DNA of 62,984 nucleotides, counting the filler, from Reclinomonas americana ATCC 50394 (taxonomy: Eukaryota): the NCBI GenBank assembly GCA_048213135.1. It is 6 parts of 2 records of this genome, joined end to end, with 100 filler letters (N's around TTAATTAATTAA, not from the genome) between each part and the next. Parts side by side here need not be neighbours in the genome. Positions count along the whole stretch, not along the records: positions 37,256 to 50,519 come from PS015182.1; 5 more parts are not named here. One strand, given 5' to 3'. The position numbers and the translations under genes were made by a program. Below are positions 2,923-44,616 of this stretch, in pieces. The notes beneath the pieces were generated by a model, which ran no database searches, had not been told where the DNA came from, and saw only the letters and a list, made by a program, of their open reading frames with translations. Numbering within the stretch: the first letter of the stretch is position 1; each line of letters starts with the position of its first letter.

Positions 2923-3922
2923 GAGGAAGAGGAGGAGGAGAGAAAATAAGGAGAGTAGGAATGTGTATAACGATGCAATGTCTCGTAAACACGAACTGAG
3001 CACGCAATTTTTCCTTTACTACTCCAAGAGTAGAGAACCGGGGTGGGGAGAAGCATAATACAGGGACGAGACGGGTGCGTGTGTGTGTGTGAGAGAGAGA
3101 GGNNNNNNNNNNNNNNNNNNNNNNNNNNNNNNNNNNNNNNNNNNNNNNNNNNNNNNNNNNNNNNNNNNNNNNNNNNNNNNNNNNNNNNNNNNNNNNNNNN
3201 NNNNNNNNNNNNNNNNNNNNNNNNNNNNNNNNNNNNNNNNNNNNNNNNNNNNNNNNNNNNNNNNNNNNNNNNNNNNNNNNNNNNNNNNNNNNNNNNNNNN
3301 NNNNNNNNNNNNNNNNNNNNNNNNNNNNNNNNNNNNNNNNNNNNNNNNNNNNNNNNNNNNNNNNNNNNNNNNNNNNNNNNNNNNNNNNNNNNNNNNNNNN
3401 NNNNNNNNNNNNNNNNNNNNNNNNNNNNNNNNNNNNNNNNNNNNNNNNNNNNNNNNNNNNNNNNNNNNNNNNNNNNNNNNNNNNNNNNNNNNNNNNNNNN
3501 NNNNNNNNNNNNNNNNNNNNNNNNNNNNNNNNNNNNNNNNNNNNNNNNNNNNNNNNNNNNNNNNNNNNNNNNNNNNNNNNNNNNNNNNNNNNNNNNNNNN
3601 NNNNNNNNNNNNNNNNNNNNNNNNNNNNNNNNNNNNNNNNNNNNNNNNNNNNNNNNNNNNNNNNNNNNNNNNNNNNNNNNNNNNNNNNNNNNNNNNNNNN
3701 NNNNNNNNNNNNNNNNNNNNNNNNNNNNNNNNNNNNNNNNNNNNNNNNNNNNNNNNNNNNNNNNNNNNNNNNNNNNNNNNNNNNNNNNNNNNNNNNNNNN
3801 NNNNNNNNNNNNNNNNNNNNNNNNNNNNNNNNNNNNNNNNNNNGCAGGAGAGGCGTGAGCGGAAATGGAGCGCAGAAAAACGGTTCCTCTCTCTCTCTCT
3901 CTCTGTCTCTCTCGGTGCGTAC

Positions 3923-10133: not shown

Positions 10134-11153
10134 TCAGTGCGACTCATCCATGCCAGCCGCAGCGCTCTGCTGACCGAGCTGCGCCACATGCTGAATAGTG
10201 TCCCAGTACCTGCAAATAGAAGAGATCAACATTCGAGAAGCACACACAGACGACGCCAGCTCTCTCCTCTCCGTTTGAGTCTGACACATTGATCTGCTTC
10301 ANNNNNNNNNNNNNNNNNNNNNNNNNNNNNNNNNNNNNNNNNNNNNNNNNNNNNNNNNNNNNNNNNNNNNNNNNNNNNNNNNNNNNNNNNNNNNNNNNNN
10401 NNNNNNNNNNNNNNNNNNNNNNNNNNNNNNNNNNNNNNNNNNNNNNNNNNNNNNNNNNNNNNNNNNNNNNNNNNNNNNNNNNNNNNNNNNNNNNNNNNNN
10501 NNNNNNNNNNNNNNNNNNNNNNNNNNNNNNNNNNNNNNNNNNNNNNNNNNNNNNNNNNNNNNNNNNNNNNNNNNNNNNNNNNNNNNNNNNNNNNNNNNNN
10601 NNNNNNNNNNNNNNNNNNNNNNNNNNNNNNNNNNNNNNNNNNNNNNNNNNNNNNNNNNNNNNNNNNNNNNNNNNNNNNNNNNNNNNNNNNNNNNNNNNNN
10701 NNNNNNNNNNNNNNNNNNNNNNNNNNNNNNNNNNNNNNNNNNNNNNNNNNNNNNNNNNNNNNNNNNNNNNNNNNNNNNNNNNNNNNNNNNNNNNNNNNNN
10801 NNNNNNNNNNNNNNNNNNNNNNNNNNNNNNNNNNNNNNNNNNNNNNNNNNNNNNNNNNNNNNNNNNNNNNNNNNNNNNNNNNNNNNNNNNNNNNNNNNNN
10901 NNNNNNNNNNNNNNNNNNNNNNNNNNNNNNNNNNNNNNNNNNNNNNNNNNNNNNNNNNNNNNNNNNNNNNNNNNNNNNNNNNNNNNNNNNNNNNNNNNNN
11001 NNNNNNNNNNNNNNNNNNNNNNNNNNNNNNNNNNNNNNNNNNNNNNNNNNNNNNNNNNNNNNNNNNNNNNNNNNNNNNNNNNNNNNNNNNNNNNNNNNNN
11101 NNNNNNNNNNNNNNNNNNNNNNNNNNNNNNNNNNNNNNNNNNNNNNNNNNCCG

Positions 11154-21216: not shown

Positions 21217-25594
<4,378 letters not shown>

Positions 25595-37255: not shown

Positions 37256-40203
37256 TCTCCTCCGTCAGCCTCCTCGCCCTCGACCTCATCAGTGAACGAC
37301 TTCCATGCGTCTCCGTCGGCCTCGGACTCGCGTTCCATCTCCTCCAGCACGCGGATCACGTGCTCTGGTCGTGCATCACCGCGGCGCCAGAACAGATACA
37401 AGCGGTACGTCTCTGTCGCCTGCCCCGTGATGGCGTGCAGGCCGCGACGCAACCGAATCGGCACTCGCGCAATCAACCGTTCCCATCCACTCTCCTGCAT
37501 GCGATCGAGGAAGAACATGACGCCGTCGCGGTCGTCCGACAAGATCTCCAGGAACCACCCATTCGGCTCCAAGAACGCCTCAATGACGCGGATCAGGCAG
37601 GCAATGTGCGTACGATCCAAGCTGTACGTGAGCTCACTACCAATCACAATCTCGGCCGGCCGCAGATCAGTGCCGGAAAAGTCGTTCCAGTCGAGCATTC
37701 TGTGCACAGCCGTCAGCCATCTCTCCCTCTTCCACCTCCATGCAGGAGTCACGCAACAGGGCTCGTGCCGACTCGCCCACATGCAGCATGCGCCGGCGAC
37801 GTGCCTCCTCCATCACAACGTCGTCTTCCGGCTGGCTGTTGACCTCGATGTTGTAGGCGATGTTGTCGATGATTTGCGGAATGTAGTCGGTGATGAAGCA
37901 GCGCTGGGCAAAGCGCGCCGCCATGACGCCCGGCAGTCCGACACCGGCGCCCAACTCAATCACCACGCGATCGGCAAACAACGCTTCACCGTGCTCACGA
38001 ATCCACCGAGCTGTGGAGGGGAGAAGAGAGTGAGAGAGGGAAAAGGGACAGAGAGAGAGAGAGAGAGACGGAAGAGGAGTGCGAGAGACAAGGGAAGAGA
38101 GGAAGACAACAGAGACGAGAGGATGGGAAAAAAGGAAGGATAAGAAGAAGAAGAAGAATAACAACAAGACGAGAATGAGAGAAAGACGGCACAGAACCCG
38201 AAGAACGAGGAAGAAAGCAAGAAGAAGAACAAGAAGAATGAGAAGAAGAACAAGACTAAGCATTGGAGAAACCAGCGACGAAGAAGAAGGAGAAGGAGGA
38301 GGAGAATAATAGCAACAACAACAAGCAGAACACGAAGAACGGAAGGCAACAAGTTGGCTTGTGGAAACAAGATGACGAAGGAGAAGGAAAAACAAGGAGA
38401 ATAAGAAGAACACGGAGAAGAGCAGCAACAACAAATACAAGAAGGGAAGCAAGAAAAAAGAGAACAGAAACAGGAGGAGAGGAGGAAGAATAAGATGGAG
38501 ATCAAAATGAAGAAGGACAGCGAAGAGAACATCGACAACATAAGAACAAGAAGAAGAACAAGAACAAGGAGGAGCGATAGAAGGAGGAGAACAACAGCAA
38601 CAACAACAACAAGAACAAGAAGAAATGGAAGAAAGAGAAGAGAAACACGACGACGAATAAGTGCAAGGAGGAGCAGAAGAAGAAGAAGTTGCAAGAAGAA
38701 GAACAAGATCAACAGCTCCAACAACAACGACAACAAGGAGGAGAAGAAGACGAAGAGGAAGAAAGCAACAGCAATTCCAACAACAAGTAGAAGAAGGAAA
38801 AGCAGCAGCAGTAGCAACAAGAACGAAAAGGAAGGCAAGAAGAAGAAGAAGAAGAGAAACAACAAGACGACGAAAGAAGCGTCATGCCCTCCCTCCTTCT
38901 CTCCCCCCTCCCTCTNNNNNNNNNNNNNNNNNNNNNNNNNNNNNNNNNNNNNNNNNNNNNNNNNNNNNNNNNNNNNNNNNNNNNNNNNNNNNNNNNNNNN
39001 NNNNNNNNNNNNNNNNNNNNNNNNNNNNNNNNNNNNNNNNNNNNNNNNNNNNNNNNNNNNNNNNNNNNNNNNNNNNNNNNNNNNNNNNNNNNNNNNNNNN
39101 NNNNNNNNNNNNNNNNNNNNNNNNNNNNNNNNNNNNNNNNNNNNNNNNNNNNNNNNNNNNNNNNNNNNNNNNNNNNNNNNNNNNNNNNNNNNNNNNNNNN
39201 NNNNNNNNNNNNNNNNNNNNNNNNNNNNNNNNNNNNNNNNNNNNNNNNNNNNNNNNNNNNNNNNNNNNNNNNNNNNNNNNNNNNNNNNNNNNNNNNNNNN
39301 NNNNNNNNNNNNNNNNNNNNNNNNNNNNNNNNNNNNNNNNNNNNNNNNNNNNNNNNNNNNNNNNNNNNNNNNNNNNNNNNNNNNNNNNNNNNNNNNNNNN
39401 NNNNNNNNNNNNNNNNNNNNNNNNNNNNNNNNNNNNNNNNNNNNNNNNNNNNNNNNNNNNNNNNNNNNNNNNNNNNNNNNNNNNNNNNNNNNNNNNNNNN
39501 NNNNNNNNNNNNNNNNNNNNNNNNNNNNNNNNNNNNNNNNNNNNNNNNNNNNNNNNNNNNNNNNNNNNNNNNNNNNNNNNNNNNNNNNNNNNNNNNNNNN
39601 NNNNNNNNNNNNNNNNNNNNNNNNNNNNNNNNNNNNNNNNNNNNNNNNNNNNNNNNNNNNNNNNNNNNNNNNNNNNNNNNNNNNNNNNNNNNNNNNNNNN
39701 NNNNNNNNNNNNNNNNNNNNNNNNNNNNNNNNNNNNNNNNNNNNNNNNNNNNNNNNNNNNNNNNNNNNNNCCCTCCCTTCCCCCTTCCCCTTTCCTGCCA
39801 CTCACCCAGAATGACGGCCGCATCCCACAACGCACACCCAATACCCCCATCAATGATCGACAGCTCCCGAATGTACATCTCATCCTCCTCCCATCGCCGC
39901 TCCTGCCGATCATACCGACCCCATCCCACAGTCTTGCGCCTCTTCTTGCCAATGCCAAGCGCAGCCTAACAAAGACACAGAGAGAACACACACAGTCTGA
40001 GCATGCATGTGTGCGAGTGAGAGAGAGAGCGGAGAAACACAATGCTCACTGTGCGCCAGTCGATGCCCGATGAGCCTGCACACACACACATACACACACA
40101 CACACACACAGACACACACACAACGTGTGAGGCACTGTGCGCCCATCACTTGCACACACACACAGAGACACTCACCGAGTCGTTCGCGCACCACCGAAGT
40201 CAT
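37256..40203 (-). CDS. METTL21/Methyltransf_16-family lysine methyltransferase; 3' end runs into a scaffold gap
   Basis: Spliced MTSVVRERL...GGIGCALWDAAVILARWI, VIELGAGVGLPG, ITDY, LDW, IVIGSELTY. No stop codon before the gap at 37255. Confidence 0.85.
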
Positions 40204-42568: not shown

Positions 42569-42638
42569 TGAGATCGCCACCAAGCGTAAGCGACACGCGA
42601 TAAGGCAAGACGGAGATGTCTGTAAGGCCTCGAGTCGA

Positions 42639-44557
42639 TCATGGCTGCTTTCGTGCGCGGCGAGCCTGAAGAAAAGCAGCAGCAGAGTAGAGTGCGTGCT
42701 GACAAAGTGAGCACACAGTGCCACGAGCGCGATCACAATGTAGATGCGGAACCTCTTTTGCAGCGGCCGCTTCCTCCTTCAGGAACTCGCGGCGCGTGTT
42801 CGACCGTGGCCCGGCATTGAAAACGCGACCGAACGACGGAAGCCACATGGGGTCGTCTTCGCCGCTGGTCGGTACACCCGCTGCGCGTGCACACTCCTTG
42901 TTCACACCACAAAATGCATCCACACATGAGAGCAGACAGCTGCACGCAACTGGCCTCCGCGAGCCTCTTGGCGCGCAGAAAATCGGCGCCGACGCGATTC
43001 GGCGGCAGCCTGGCTTGCCGCTCGGCCTGTTTCGCTGACGGTACGCGCGAGCCGAGACGCACACCACGTGGGGGCATGGTCGGTCCAATGACGGGTTGCT
43101 AACACGAAGAACGAAAAAAACACAGTCGCACGTGGGTTTAGGAACGAGTTCATCGACCACATTGCGTGTGGTAGGCAGGGTACGGTGGAAGAACGAAAAC
43201 AACAATCAAAAGGATACATCACGCGGCGTGGACGCACAATGGCGGAGGCCGGACGAAGCCACGGTGGTACTGAATCAGCGTCGTACACATTCTTCTCGCC
43301 GGAACCCAACTGGCGCGGACGCAGAGCAAACAGGCCTGGCCCTGAAGCACGCTGCGTGACCTTGCGCACGACTCCGTCTGTTGCGGCACGAAGGGGTCAG
43401 GTGTATGCGACGTTGGTGGCACTGAAACGCCACGCAACTCGCTGAGACACGAGGAGTGTATCGCTGGAAAATGCGCGTGCCCATGATCTCGGCCCCGCGA
43501 AAGTCATCCGACTGGTCGTCCAGGTCCAGCTCCCACGGGATCCACTGCGACTGTGTGGCCCCGTGATACTTGACCACACCTCCGCCCCACACACGCCGTC
43601 CCTCGTGCCAGCCAGTGGGGTTCTGCACCACGCCGTGCTCGTTGGTCACCGTATAGTACACTGCGTCGCAGTGAGCATGCCGCGGTGGGAAGAGATGAGG
43701 CAAGTACTGACCTATGGGAGCACGTCTGATGATCGGAGGGATGGCAATCGTGGTGGCCGTCGTCGTCGTCGTCGCAGTGGTGGTGGTGGTCGTCGTCGTC
43801 TTCCTGCTGTCCATCTCCTCACGCTGTTTCTCCTCGCGCTGCTTCTCCTCGTACTCCTCCACGGCCAGCAAGTACTGCAACGTCGGTGGGTGAGTCCCTG
43901 CCTCCCACCTCTCACCAAAACACACGGACCTCCACCCACTCGTCATCGTTCAAGTACTGCGCCTGTGCCCGATGCGAGCGTGGCTTGTTCTCCTTCCAGA
44001 ACGCATGCACCGAGGCCACATGCATCGCCGACGCCAAATGCTCCACAAAAGCAAAGCCAGGCACACGCTCCTGCTGCGTCGTCTTCTTCTCGTTCTTCTT
44101 GACCACCTTCATCTTCTTTTCCCCTTCCTCGTCCTCGTCCTCGTCTTCCTCTTCCTCGTGATCATCCAGTGCAGAGGCGTGCCGAAACACATCGCGTGCA
44201 CAAAACACGCAGTAGAATCGCTCACGAGCGCCATCGCCAGTCACCACTGGACCCTCTGCATTCCAATCATCATCATCAATCTCCGCCACTCTCTCTCACA
44301 CACACAGCGGCACTTTGGCGTCACTTGCCTGCACTGCGGAGAGCCTCGGTGCCCCACATGCGCAGAAAGTGCTGCGTGCGAGCCTCGTGCTTGCCGAGTA
44401 CACGCTCGACGGCGGCAACATGTGATGGAGTGAAGGCATGACCGCGCTCGGCAAAGCTCAGGCGACACACACTGCAGTAGACCAGTGCACCACCGCCACT
44501 GCCACCACGTTTTCGCACTCGTTTGCGTCGTTTCTTGGTCGCCTCGCCCTCGCTCAT
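42639..44557 (-). CDS. CENATAC: CENATAC (CCDC84), minor-spliceosome zinc-finger protein
   Basis: Two zinc fingers (CSVC...GHAFTPSH; FYCVFC...HLASAMH...FWKENK) and C-terminal motifs NV..DSVPPWL, VIGPT, LPPNRVGADF and WLPSFGRVFNAGPRSNTRREF. Confidence 0.9.
43208..43217 (-). promoter_or_regulatory. U12-type 5' splice-site consensus (GTATCCTTTT) inside a CENATAC intron
   Basis: Exact RTATCCTTT match 20 nt downstream of the GTGCGT donor at 43237. A branch-like TTCCTAAAC lies at 43144-43136. Function is inferred. Confidence 0.5.
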
Positions 44558-44616
44558 CGCATGTGTTTTCGCAGAGGGGGACAACTAACTCACTTCGCAA
44601 CACAAGCCTTTGTACA

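What the first reader, a model, noticed from the sequence alone, without database searches (positions are those of the whole stretch)
43099..43237. Perfect U12-type donor nested in a U2 intron of the minor-spliceosome gene CENATAC: candidate feedback switch
Seen (minus strand): the productive intron is att|GTGCGT (43237) to TAG|caa (43099), giving PPWLRPASAI-QPVIGPT. GTATCCTTTT (43217) lies 20 nt inside it, and TTCCTAAAC (43144-43136) is one mismatch from the U12 branch consensus TTCCTTAAC. Using the inner donor with the same AG adds 20 nt and frameshifts away the conserved LPPNRVGADF and WLPSFGRV motifs. It is the only such U12 donor I noticed in the window. Known: CENATAC acts in minor splicing, and SNRNP48 and RNPC3 are feedback-regulated through U11 binding to U12-type 5' splice-site motifs. 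Inference: high minor-spliceosome activity could divert CENATAC mRNA to an unproductive isoform.
Basis: partly seen in the sequence, partly recalled or inferred. Interest (0 to 1): 0.75.

Follow-up and report, generated by a model that had tools for sequence, protein, structure and literature searches.

The report
Minor-splice decoy site in CENATAC gene
A gene for a minor-spliceosome protein in an unidentified microbial eukaryote carries a perfect minor-type intron start just inside an ordinary intron, a self-limiting layout already published for vertebrate and plant versions of this gene, so this is a probable new example, not a new principle.

Summary
On the minus strand a CCDC84/CENATAC gene (CDS 44557-42639) has a 139-nt GT-AG intron (43237-43099). 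GTATCCTTTT lies 20 nt inside it, and TTCCTAAAC lies 73 nt further on. It is the only RTATCCTT in the window. One hit is not above chance for the window (0.49 expected), but I estimate about 0.008 expected inside this gene's pre-mRNA.

Using the inner donor with the same AG shifts the frame, removes the IGPT, RVGADF and WLPSFGRV motifs, and ends at a TGA (42781-42779).

The feedback idea is already in print. De Wolf et al. 2021, Cologne et al. 2019 and Akinyi and Frilander 2021 describe competing U2 and U12 5' splice sites with a shared 3' site in vertebrate CENATAC intron 5. A plant variant is also described.

I found the same layout in three metagenomic lineages, always in the intron before the NPTGW exon. 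Here it sits in a later intron.

Main weakness: the branch-like motif is 38 nt from the AG, against a published optimum of 11-13 nt. No RNA data, whole genome or close relative could be reached.

Verdict: candidate new variant of a known circuit.

The parts
42639..44557 (-). CCDC84/CENATAC coding span, from ATG 44557-44555 to TGA 42641-42639, interrupted by several short introns
   Evidence: Pfam PF14968 matches the exon pieces: E 8.3e-8 for the C-terminal piece, 0.0013 and 0.00046 for the N-terminal pieces. The best database hit is a 338-aa PF14968 protein, E 1.9e-13. Motifs are aligned in A1. tblastn of P0001-P0003 hits the gene.
43451..43721 (-). Open frame encoding the family's most conserved block (VQNPTGWHEGRRVWGGGVVKY). 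A possible 51-nt intron lies just upstream of it.
   Evidence: The 51-nt intron is read by eye and is not tested.
43238..43377 (-). Exon ending ...NVYDADSVPPWLRPASAI (the PPWL motif)
   Evidence: P0002 residues 290-322 align here.
43232..43237 (-). U2-type donor GTGCGT of the productive 139-nt intron (43237-43099)
   Evidence: GTGCGT occurs 110 times in the window against 54 expected, and 0 of 100 shuffles reach that. This fits it being the organism's usual donor.
43218..43237 (-). The 20 nt that become exon if the inner donor is used
43208..43217 (-). Nested U12-type 5' splice-site motif GTATCCTTTT
   Evidence: It is the only RTATCCTT in the window.
43136..43144 (-). Branch-like motif TTCCTAAAC. 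It has one mismatch to the recalled U12 consensus and ends 36 nt before the AG dinucleotide (38 nt from its last A to the exon junction).
43125..43126 (-). AC dinucleotide 12 nt after the branch-like motif. It is a possible alternative 3' end of a 93-nt GT..AC minor-type intron (43217-43125). Using it is also unproductive.
   Evidence: GT-AC pairs are called disfavoured in PMC3584512.
43101..43124 (-). T-rich tract without any A, a typical U2-type polypyrimidine tract
43099..43100 (-). The AG 3' splice site. It is the first AG after the branch-like motif, so it would be shared by both donors.
42951..43098 (-). Exon QPVIGPT...LPPNRVGADFLRAKRLAEA (GPS/T and RVGADF motifs)
   Evidence: BLASTP to P0004 gives E 0.003 and to P0001 E 0.004 over the RVGADF block.
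42881..42950 (-). 70-nt intron with a GTTGCGT donor
42753..42880 (-). Exon with WLPSFGRVFNAGPRSNTRREF. It holds the premature TGA (42781-42779) of the inner-donor isoform.
42666..42752 (-). Last intron, 87 nt

Best explanation
The site is a sensor of minor-spliceosome activity built into the CENATAC gene, of the kind published for vertebrates.

U1 at GTGCGT (43237) and the U11/U12 di-snRNP at GTATCCTTTT (43217) compete for one intron. The outer (major) donor gives the full protein. The inner (minor) donor is joined to the shared AG at 43099, or failing that to the AC at 43125. Either product is a frameshifted message that lacks the three C-terminal motifs.

When minor-spliceosome activity is high, more transcripts would be wasted and less CENATAC made.

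Shown here: the motifs, their geometry and the reading frames. Taken from the literature: the mechanism in vertebrates and plants. Inferred: that it operates in this organism.
For: 1. The gene is CCDC84/CENATAC.

2. The inner motif is a perfect 10-nt match and the only RTATCCTT in 63 kb. About 0.008 are expected in this gene by chance (my arithmetic).

3. No acceptor ending in AG is in frame with the inner donor. With the shared AG the frame shifts and stops at 42781-42779.

4. Published precedent in the same gene family:
- Vertebrate intron 5 has conserved U2 and U12 5' splice sites, a U12 branch site and a shared 3' site. U12 use gives a premature stop.
- In control human cells the two isoforms run at about 65/35. 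This shifts to about 15/85 in favour of the U2 sites when U4atac is mutated.
- In plants, TTL has a U12 intron whose removal is unproductive, with experimental signs of feedback.

5. My own comparison. Three metagenomic lineages (L004, L023, L027 types) have a U2 donor, a U12-type donor 8, 35 or 40 nt downstream, a shared 3' site and an in-frame stop in the extension. Two contigs (L002, L024) carry the sequence joined exactly from the U12-type donor to the shared 3' site.

6. Earlier notes of this scan report textbook AT-AC introns on other pieces of the same assembly (not checked by me).
Against: No transcript evidence exists for this locus.

The branch-like motif has a mismatch and lies 38 nt from the AG. 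A T-rich tract typical of major introns lies between them. The review passage gives an 11-13 nt optimum and says U12 introns lack such a tract. In the animal-like loci the branch motif TTCCTGAAT sits 10-16 nt from the AG.

The nearer AC would make a GT-AC intron, a combination called disfavoured.

The intron is not the one that carries the module in the metagenomic loci. There it is the intron before the NPTGW exon.

The premature stop lies only 26 nt before the last exon junction, so nonsense-mediated decay may not apply.

No U11, U12, U4atac or U6atac gene could be looked for. The window has no Rfam hit and no genome is held.

14 of the 28 related loci show no [AG]TATCCT on the sense strand of the stretch held. 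Some are short pieces, and one (L024) is the joined form. The module is not shown to be universal in this family.
Confidence: 0.5

Rival explanations
1. Chance motif or decayed relic. The 10-mer arose by chance in a T-rich intron, or it is left over from a former minor-type intron or module. It has no present effect on splicing.
For: One RTATCCTT in the window is within chance: 0.49 expected, and 39 of 100 shuffles have at least one. The branch-like motif is off-consensus and 38 nt from the AG. The intron's 3' end looks fully U2-type. 14 of the 28 related loci show no such motif on the sense strand of the stretch held.
Against: The single hit falls on the sense strand, inside an intron, out of frame, in the one gene family for which this layout is published. 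About 0.008 are expected by my arithmetic. A branch-like motif follows in the same intron, with about 0.004 expected.
Confidence: 0.27
2. Occupancy without catalysis. U11/U12 binds the inner motif but cannot complete splicing because of the poor 3' geometry. Its bulk, 20 nt from the U2 donor, blocks U1, so the 139-nt intron is retained. Retention also shifts the frame, so the feedback sign is the same.
For: The two donors are only 20 nt apart. Retention of 139 nt loses the motifs. U11-bound elements that act without being spliced are known from the USSE of SNRNP48 and RNPC3. The long distance from branch motif to AG argues against efficient U12 catalysis.
Against: No data. USSE elements are tandem copies and act as enhancers of an upstream 3' site, not as blockers. 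Here there is one copy.
Confidence: 0.12
3. Nested true minor intron (twintron). A 93-nt GT..AC minor-type intron (43217-43125) lies inside the 139-nt major intron, with the branch motif at the optimal 12 nt from its 3' end.
For: The branch-to-AC distance of 12 nt matches the published optimum. Its 93 nt is close to the 81-89 nt of four AT-AC introns that earlier notes report elsewhere in this assembly, two of them called minor-type (not checked).
Against: GT-AC termini are called disfavoured. An AC or AG within a few bases of the right distance is common by chance. The product is unproductive as well, so for function this is a sub-case of the main explanation.
Confidence: 0.08

Closest known systems
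[quoted passage not shown] Sources: de Wolf et al. 2021 (PMC8280824 passages and preprint Fig. S10 legend), Cologne et al. 2019 (PMC6800510 passages), Akinyi and Frilander 2021 (PMC8329584 passages).
   Same: Same gene family. A GT-type U12 5' splice-site motif and a U2 donor serve one intron. The U2 donor is productive, and the U12 donor shifts the frame to a premature stop. The proposed role is negative feedback on a minor-spliceosome protein.
   Different: Here the branch-like motif is 38 nt from the AG and is followed by a pyrimidine tract. The intron lies between the PPWL and GPS/T motifs. In the animal-like metagenomic loci I examined, the module sits in the intron before the NPTGW exon. 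I could not see the human exon map or Appendix Fig. S9 (file too large), so the position of human intron 5 in the protein is inferred, not checked. Usage is shown by RNA-seq in humans and is untested here.
Metagenomic CENATAC loci found here: L023/L001/L021, L027/L016/L018/L019/L026 and L004/L005/L006
   Same: U2 donor first, U12-type donor nested 8-40 nt downstream (20 nt in the window), one 3' site, and an unproductive reading from the inner donor.
   Different: The module is in a different intron. The extension itself contains an in-frame stop, which the window's does not. Where a branch motif is visible (TTCCTGAAT) it lies 10-16 nt from the AG. L004 has a second U12-type donor 80 nt after the first.
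Plant TTL (Arabidopsis CENATAC homologue): an AT-AC U12 intron inside a coding exon (10.1101/2025.02.25.639993 passages; preprint Fig. S10B legend)
   Same: Minor-spliceosome action on the gene's own transcript destroys the reading frame, giving negative feedback.
   Different: In plants the retained form is the productive one and the intron is AT-AC. Here retention is unproductive and the motif is GT-type.
USSE of SNRNP48 (U11-48K) and RNPC3 (U11/U12-65K) (Turunen et al. 2013 review, PMC3584512 passages)
   Same: A U12-type 5' splice-site sequence is used as a gauge of U11/U12 level in a gene for a minor-spliceosome protein.
   Different: The USSE is a tandem repeat that is not itself spliced and that activates an upstream U2-type 3' site. 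The window has a single copy inside an intron.

Membership tests
CCDC84/CENATAC protein family (Pfam PF14968) | Match to the family profile | tested here: met
   The C-terminal piece scores 32.7 bits, E 8.3e-8, above the 25.3 cut-off. Two N-terminal pieces score below the cut-off (E 0.0013 and 0.00046). Only exon pieces could be scanned, not the spliced protein.
CCDC84/CENATAC protein family (Pfam PF14968) | Conserved blocks in order: NPTGWHEGRRVWGGG, PPWL, GPS/T, RVGADF, W.P.FGRVW | tested here: met
   Alignment A1, in-silico splice, BLASTP E 0.003 and 0.004 for RVGADF, tblastn.
U12-type (minor) intron | 5' splice site RTATCCTT at the intron start | tested here: met
GTATCCTTTT at 43217-43208.
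U12-type (minor) intron | Branch-site consensus TTCCTTAAC | tested here: inconclusive
   TTCCTAAAC has one mismatch, at a paired position. The organism's own U12 snRNA and branch consensus are unknown.
U12-type (minor) intron | Short distance from branch site to 3' splice site (optimum 11-13 nt) and no marked pyrimidine tract | tested here: not met
   The distance to the AG is 38 nt, across a T-rich tract. The standard is from PMC3584512. The distance is met only for the AC at 43125, which gives disfavoured GT-AC ends.
U12-type (minor) intron | Removal by the minor spliceosome (junction reads, sensitivity to loss of U12 or U6atac) | not testable with these tools
   No RNA run was listed and no genome is held.
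CENATAC competing-5'-splice-site module (vertebrate type) | A U2-type donor gives the productive mRNA; a U12-type donor in the same intron gives a premature stop | tested here: met
   In silico only.
CENATAC competing-5'-splice-site module (vertebrate type) | A U12 branch site placed to serve the shared 3' splice site | tested here: not met
   38 nt here, against 10-16 nt in L020, L023 and L027.
CENATAC competing-5'-splice-site module (vertebrate type) | Same intron position as in animals | tested here: not met
   In L004, L023 and L027 the module is in the intron before the NPTGW exon. In the window it lies between the PPWL and GPS/T motifs. The human exon map was not seen.
CENATAC competing-5'-splice-site module (vertebrate type) | Both motifs conserved in related species | not testable with these tools
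   No close relative was found: 28 metagenome loci, 1 uninformative genome locus, and no look-alike window.
USSE (U11 snRNP-binding splicing enhancer) | Tandem repeat of U12-type 5' splice sites | tested here: not met
   A single copy in the gene and in the window.
Plant TTL-type module | U12 intron inside a coding exon whose retention is productive | tested here: not met
   Retention of the 139 nt shifts the frame and loses the motifs.

The most novel reading that the evidence does not exclude
Self-limitation of CENATAC through a U12-type 5' splice site may be a feature of the gene across eukaryotes that is either very old or repeatedly re-invented, with the sensor site moving between introns. 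It sits before the NPTGW exon in animal-like and one AT-rich lineage, inside an exon in plants, and after the PPWL motif in this unplaced protist. In this organism it would work with a distance from branch motif to 3' site about three times the optimum known from animals, or by U11/U12 occupancy without splicing. Either would widen what is thought possible for minor-spliceosome recognition.
Probability: 0.3. Interest if true: 0.55.

Novelty: new variant of a known kind. Interest (0 to 1): 0.35.

Why it matters
The feedback principle is already known for this gene, so the finding does not open a new question.

If the site is used, it would show that the circuit exists outside animals and plants, in a different intron. 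That bears on whether minor-spliceosome homeostasis through CENATAC goes back to early eukaryotes or has arisen repeatedly.

It would also give a natural test case for how far a U12-type branch site can lie from its 3' splice site.

In practice, gene predictors that meet such nested donors can pick the wrong one and report a truncated CENATAC. The closest database protein (P0001) stops right after the RVGADF motif and lacks the last block.

Tried and rejected
- RNA evidence: no RNA holder was listed for 42600-44600, so no reads could be laid.
- Whole genome: none is held, so U11, U12, U4atac and U6atac could not be sought. The window alone has no Rfam match at gathering scores.
- Close relatives:
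  - The metagenome scan gave 28 loci, none close. The best short segments are 77% identical.
  - The prokaryote genome collection gave one contig, 35% identical, with no useful motif.
  - No look-alike window exists in the scan's index.
- Organism placement:
  - The best CENATAC hit is a EukProt entry with the prefix Ihof. I think this is Ichthyophonus, from recall and unverified.
  - A calnexin exon finds only 44-69% identical pieces in animals, fungi, plants and algae alike.
  - 6 of the 10 longest frames and other ORFs I scanned matched calnexin, formin, GH94, AIF, Kelch or HAT-repeat families.
  - The organism stays unplaced.
- A productive use of the inner donor: rejected. No in-frame acceptor ends in AG. 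The only in-frame AC is 58 nt past the branch motif and would delete the IGPT motif.
- A hairpin that might shorten the branch-to-AG distance: a weak CACG/CGUG stem of -4.1 kcal/mol is no better than shuffles (z 0.30). The whole intron region gives z 0.96.
- The paper's Appendix Fig. S9 could not be read because the file is too large. Searches of the other supplementary files found nothing on it. I used the preprint's Fig. S10 legend instead.
- One literature search with loose settings returned nothing relevant.
- Of the 52 papers that hold the word CENATAC, I read passages of six (Cologne 2019, uses the older name CCDC84). None mentions a protist case. That is not proof that none is in print.
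- An early script used an exon boundary 4 nt off and gave wrong frames. One search corrects it, and only one search is used.

Full report
WHAT IS THERE

The window is a eukaryotic scaffold with 22 runs of N, 6,489 N in all. The dips in G+C are these gaps, not AT-rich DNA.

On the minus strand between 44557 and 42639 lies a gene whose exon pieces match Pfam PF14968 (CCDC84, now called CENATAC). The C-terminal piece gives E 8.3e-8 and the N-terminal pieces give 0.0013 and 0.00046.

The most conserved exon finds a 338-aa PF14968 protein at E 1.9e-13. An alignment with five family members (A1) shows the family blocks in order: NPTGWHEGRRVWGGG, PPWL, GPS, RVGADF and W.P.FGRVW.

Every coordinate in the finding is right:
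- donor ATT|GTGCGT at 43237
- GTATCCTTTT at 43217-43208
- TTCCTAAAC at 43144-43136
- AG at 43100-43099

GENE MODEL AROUND THE SITE

With exon boundaries taken from frames and homology, I joined the exons in a script. An earlier version had one boundary 4 nt off and is discarded.

The outer donor with the AG at 43099 gives a continuous reading through PPWL, IGPT, NRVGADF and WLPSFGRVFN to a stop at 42641-42639. The RVGADF exon frame is supported by BLASTP to two family members, E 0.003 and 0.004.

The four introns fixed this way are 73, 139, 70 and 87 nt long. The one in question is the longest. One neighbouring intron starts GTTGCGT.

GTGCGT itself is twice as frequent in the window as in shuffles: 110 against 54, and 0 of 100 shuffles reach that. 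This fits it being the usual donor, as earlier notes of this scan say for other pieces of the assembly.

WHAT THE INNER DONOR WOULD DO

- Joined to the same AG, it adds 20 nt. The frame shifts, all three later motifs are lost, and translation stops at TGA 42781-42779, 26 nt before the last exon junction.
- No acceptor ending in AG is in frame with it.
- The only in-frame AC lies 58 nt past the branch-like motif.
- Retention of the intron is equally unproductive.
- Removal of a 93-nt GT..AC stretch ending at 43125 is also unproductive.

IS IT MORE THAN CHANCE?

As a count, no.
- RTATCCTT occurs once, with 0.49 expected. 39 of 100 shuffles have at least one.
- The one-mismatch branch motif occurs 6 times, with 3.77 expected.

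As a location, yes.
- By my arithmetic about 0.008 donor hits are expected on the sense strand of this one gene.
- About 0.004 branch-like hits are expected in the 118 nt that follow the donor.
- Among 7 looser donor matches in the window, this is the only one followed by a branch-like motif.

The gene is not an arbitrary one, as the next section shows.

WHAT IS ALREADY KNOWN

De Wolf et al. 2021 (PMC8280824, section 8 passages) report conserved competing major and minor 5' splice sites in animal CENATAC. These are predicted to give productive and unproductive mRNAs. The authors call this an autoregulatory circuit like that of the 48K and 65K proteins, and they note a similar circuit in plants.

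The preprint's Fig. S10 legend gives detail:
- The intron is vertebrate intron 5.
- It has U2 and U12 5' sites, a U12 branch site and a 3' site used by both.
- U12 use gives a premature stop in exon 6.
- The alignment covers 43 vertebrate species.
- In plants, a U12 intron sits inside exon 3, and its retention is the productive form.

Cologne et al. 2019 (PMC6800510 passages) measured about 65/35 U12/U2 use in control cells. This shifted to about 15/85 in patients with U4atac mutations.

Akinyi and Frilander 2021 (PMC8329584 passages) describe it as a feedback mechanism with a shared 3' site.

A 2026 preprint on Arabidopsis TTL (passages) adds experimental signs of feedback.

It did not cite that model.

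COMPARISON WITH RELATED LOCI

A scan of metagenome contigs gave 28 loci. None is a close relative.

By eye I sorted them into about ten sequence groups. This was not a formal clustering.

In three groups the intron just before the NPTGW exon has the published layout.
- Groups: L001/L021/L023; L016/L018/L019/L026/L027; L004/L005/L006. That is 11 of the 28 loci.
- Each has a U2-type donor and a U12-type donor 35, 40 or 8 nt further in.
- Each has one 3' site and an in-frame stop in the extension.
- The frames were checked by script for L004, L023 and L027. The L018 check used a bad offset and is not counted.

L004 has a second U12-type donor 80 nt after the first.

L002 and L024 carry the sequence joined exactly from the U12-type donor to the shared 3' site, while still holding other introns. 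I cannot tell whether they are partly processed RNA or DNA copies.

The branch motif in these animal-like loci is TTCCTGAAT, 10-16 nt from the AG (L020, L023, L027).

Fourteen loci show no [AG]TATCCT on the sense strand of the stretch held. They include L003, which holds the whole gene (its start, the NPTGW block and the end all align). L024, the joined form, is also among them.

Sense against antisense counts are 19 against 11. Many loci are near-duplicates, so this is not a test.

HOW THE WINDOW DIFFERS

Its nested donor is not in the intron before the NPTGW exon. The candidate intron there is 51 nt and plain. The nested donor lies two introns further on, between PPWL and IGPT.

Its branch-like motif is 38 nt from the AG, and the last 26 nt of the intron before the AG hold no A at all. 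The review by Turunen et al. (PMC3584512 passages) says three things that bear on this:
- The optimum distance is 11-13 nt.
- U12 introns lack a marked pyrimidine tract.
- GT-AC combinations are disfavoured.

No RNA fold brings the motif closer. The z-scores are 0.96 and 0.30.

The site therefore passes the 5' test for a minor intron and fails the 3' geometry test. I do not file it as a proven U12-type intron, nor as a positional counterpart of the animal module.

MOST LIKELY MECHANISM

I give about 0.5 to a working sensor in which the U11/U12 di-snRNP and U1 compete over donors 20 nt apart, and the inner choice yields a dead message.

Rival readings:
- About 0.12 for occupancy without catalysis, which blocks U1 and causes retention. 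The feedback sign is the same.
- About 0.08 for a nested 93-nt GT..AC minor intron.
- About 0.27 for chance or a decayed relic.

The premature stop is close to the last junction, so loss of the protein motifs is the surer consequence, not mRNA decay.

WHAT COULD NOT BE DONE

- No RNA run was listed.
- No genome is held.
- No minor snRNA lies in the window.
- The organism could not be placed. The calnexin exon is at most 69% identical, over half its length, to proteins of animals, fungi, plants and algae alike.
- Earlier notes of this scan report textbook AT-AC introns elsewhere in the same assembly. I did not check them.

VERDICT

I class it as a candidate new variant of a known circuit, with moderate to low interest (0.35).

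Noticed in passing
L002 1134-1260 and L024 32-160: Two metagenomic contigs carry the CENATAC sequence joined exactly from the U12-type donor to the shared 3' splice site, that is, the unproductive isoform with its in-frame TAA. They still hold other introns. They are either partly processed transcripts or DNA copies of the spliced form.
   Followed up: partly
L004 2859-2998 (also L005, L006): An AT-rich eukaryote (26% G+C) has a CENATAC intron with a weak U2-type donor (GTTGAC) followed by two perfect U12-type donors at +8 and +88. The tandem arrangement recalls the USSE. The first extension contains an in-frame TGA.
   Followed up: partly
L020 1714 and 1777; L012 1386; L002 558: Further sense-strand U12-type donor motifs occur in CENATAC loci at other places. 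L020 has two, 63 nt apart, in the intron after the WGGG exon. L012 has ATATCCTTAAC about 50 nt before the first coding match. L002 has ATATCCTTTAA inside intron 1. Their frames were not analysed.
   Followed up: no
window 42881-42950 (-): The intron after the RVGADF exon starts GTTGCGT after an exon ending in A. This is the one-base-shifted donor class that earlier notes describe for this assembly.
   Followed up: partly
window 43740-43800 (-): The CENATAC frame holds a run of about 25 residues that are almost all threonine, with a few alanines, between the coiled-coil region and the NPTGW block. The aligned family members have no such run.
   Followed up: no
window 44560-44562 (-): A three-codon upstream reading frame (ATG CGA TGA) overlaps the CENATAC start codon region.
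   Followed up: no
window, 22 stretches such as 3103-3843, 10302-11150 and 38916-39770: Runs of N total 6,489 bases. Several come as paired 44-base runs 12 bases apart. They explain the apparent low-G+C blocks and the ORFs open in all six frames.
   Followed up: yes
window 21914-24135 (-): A calnexin/calreticulin gene in several exons (Pfam PF00262, best piece E 3.1e-48). Its closest database proteins are only about 45-69% identical, so the organism has no sampled close relative.
   Followed up: partly
P0001: The closest database protein ends right after the RVGADF motif and lacks the W.P.FGRVW block that the other aligned members and the window have. Its gene model may be truncated at its 3' end.
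   Followed up: no
L029: A contig filed under a bacterial metagenome-assembled genome encodes a weak CENATAC-like WGGG block (35% identity). It may be a eukaryotic contaminant.
   Followed up: partly
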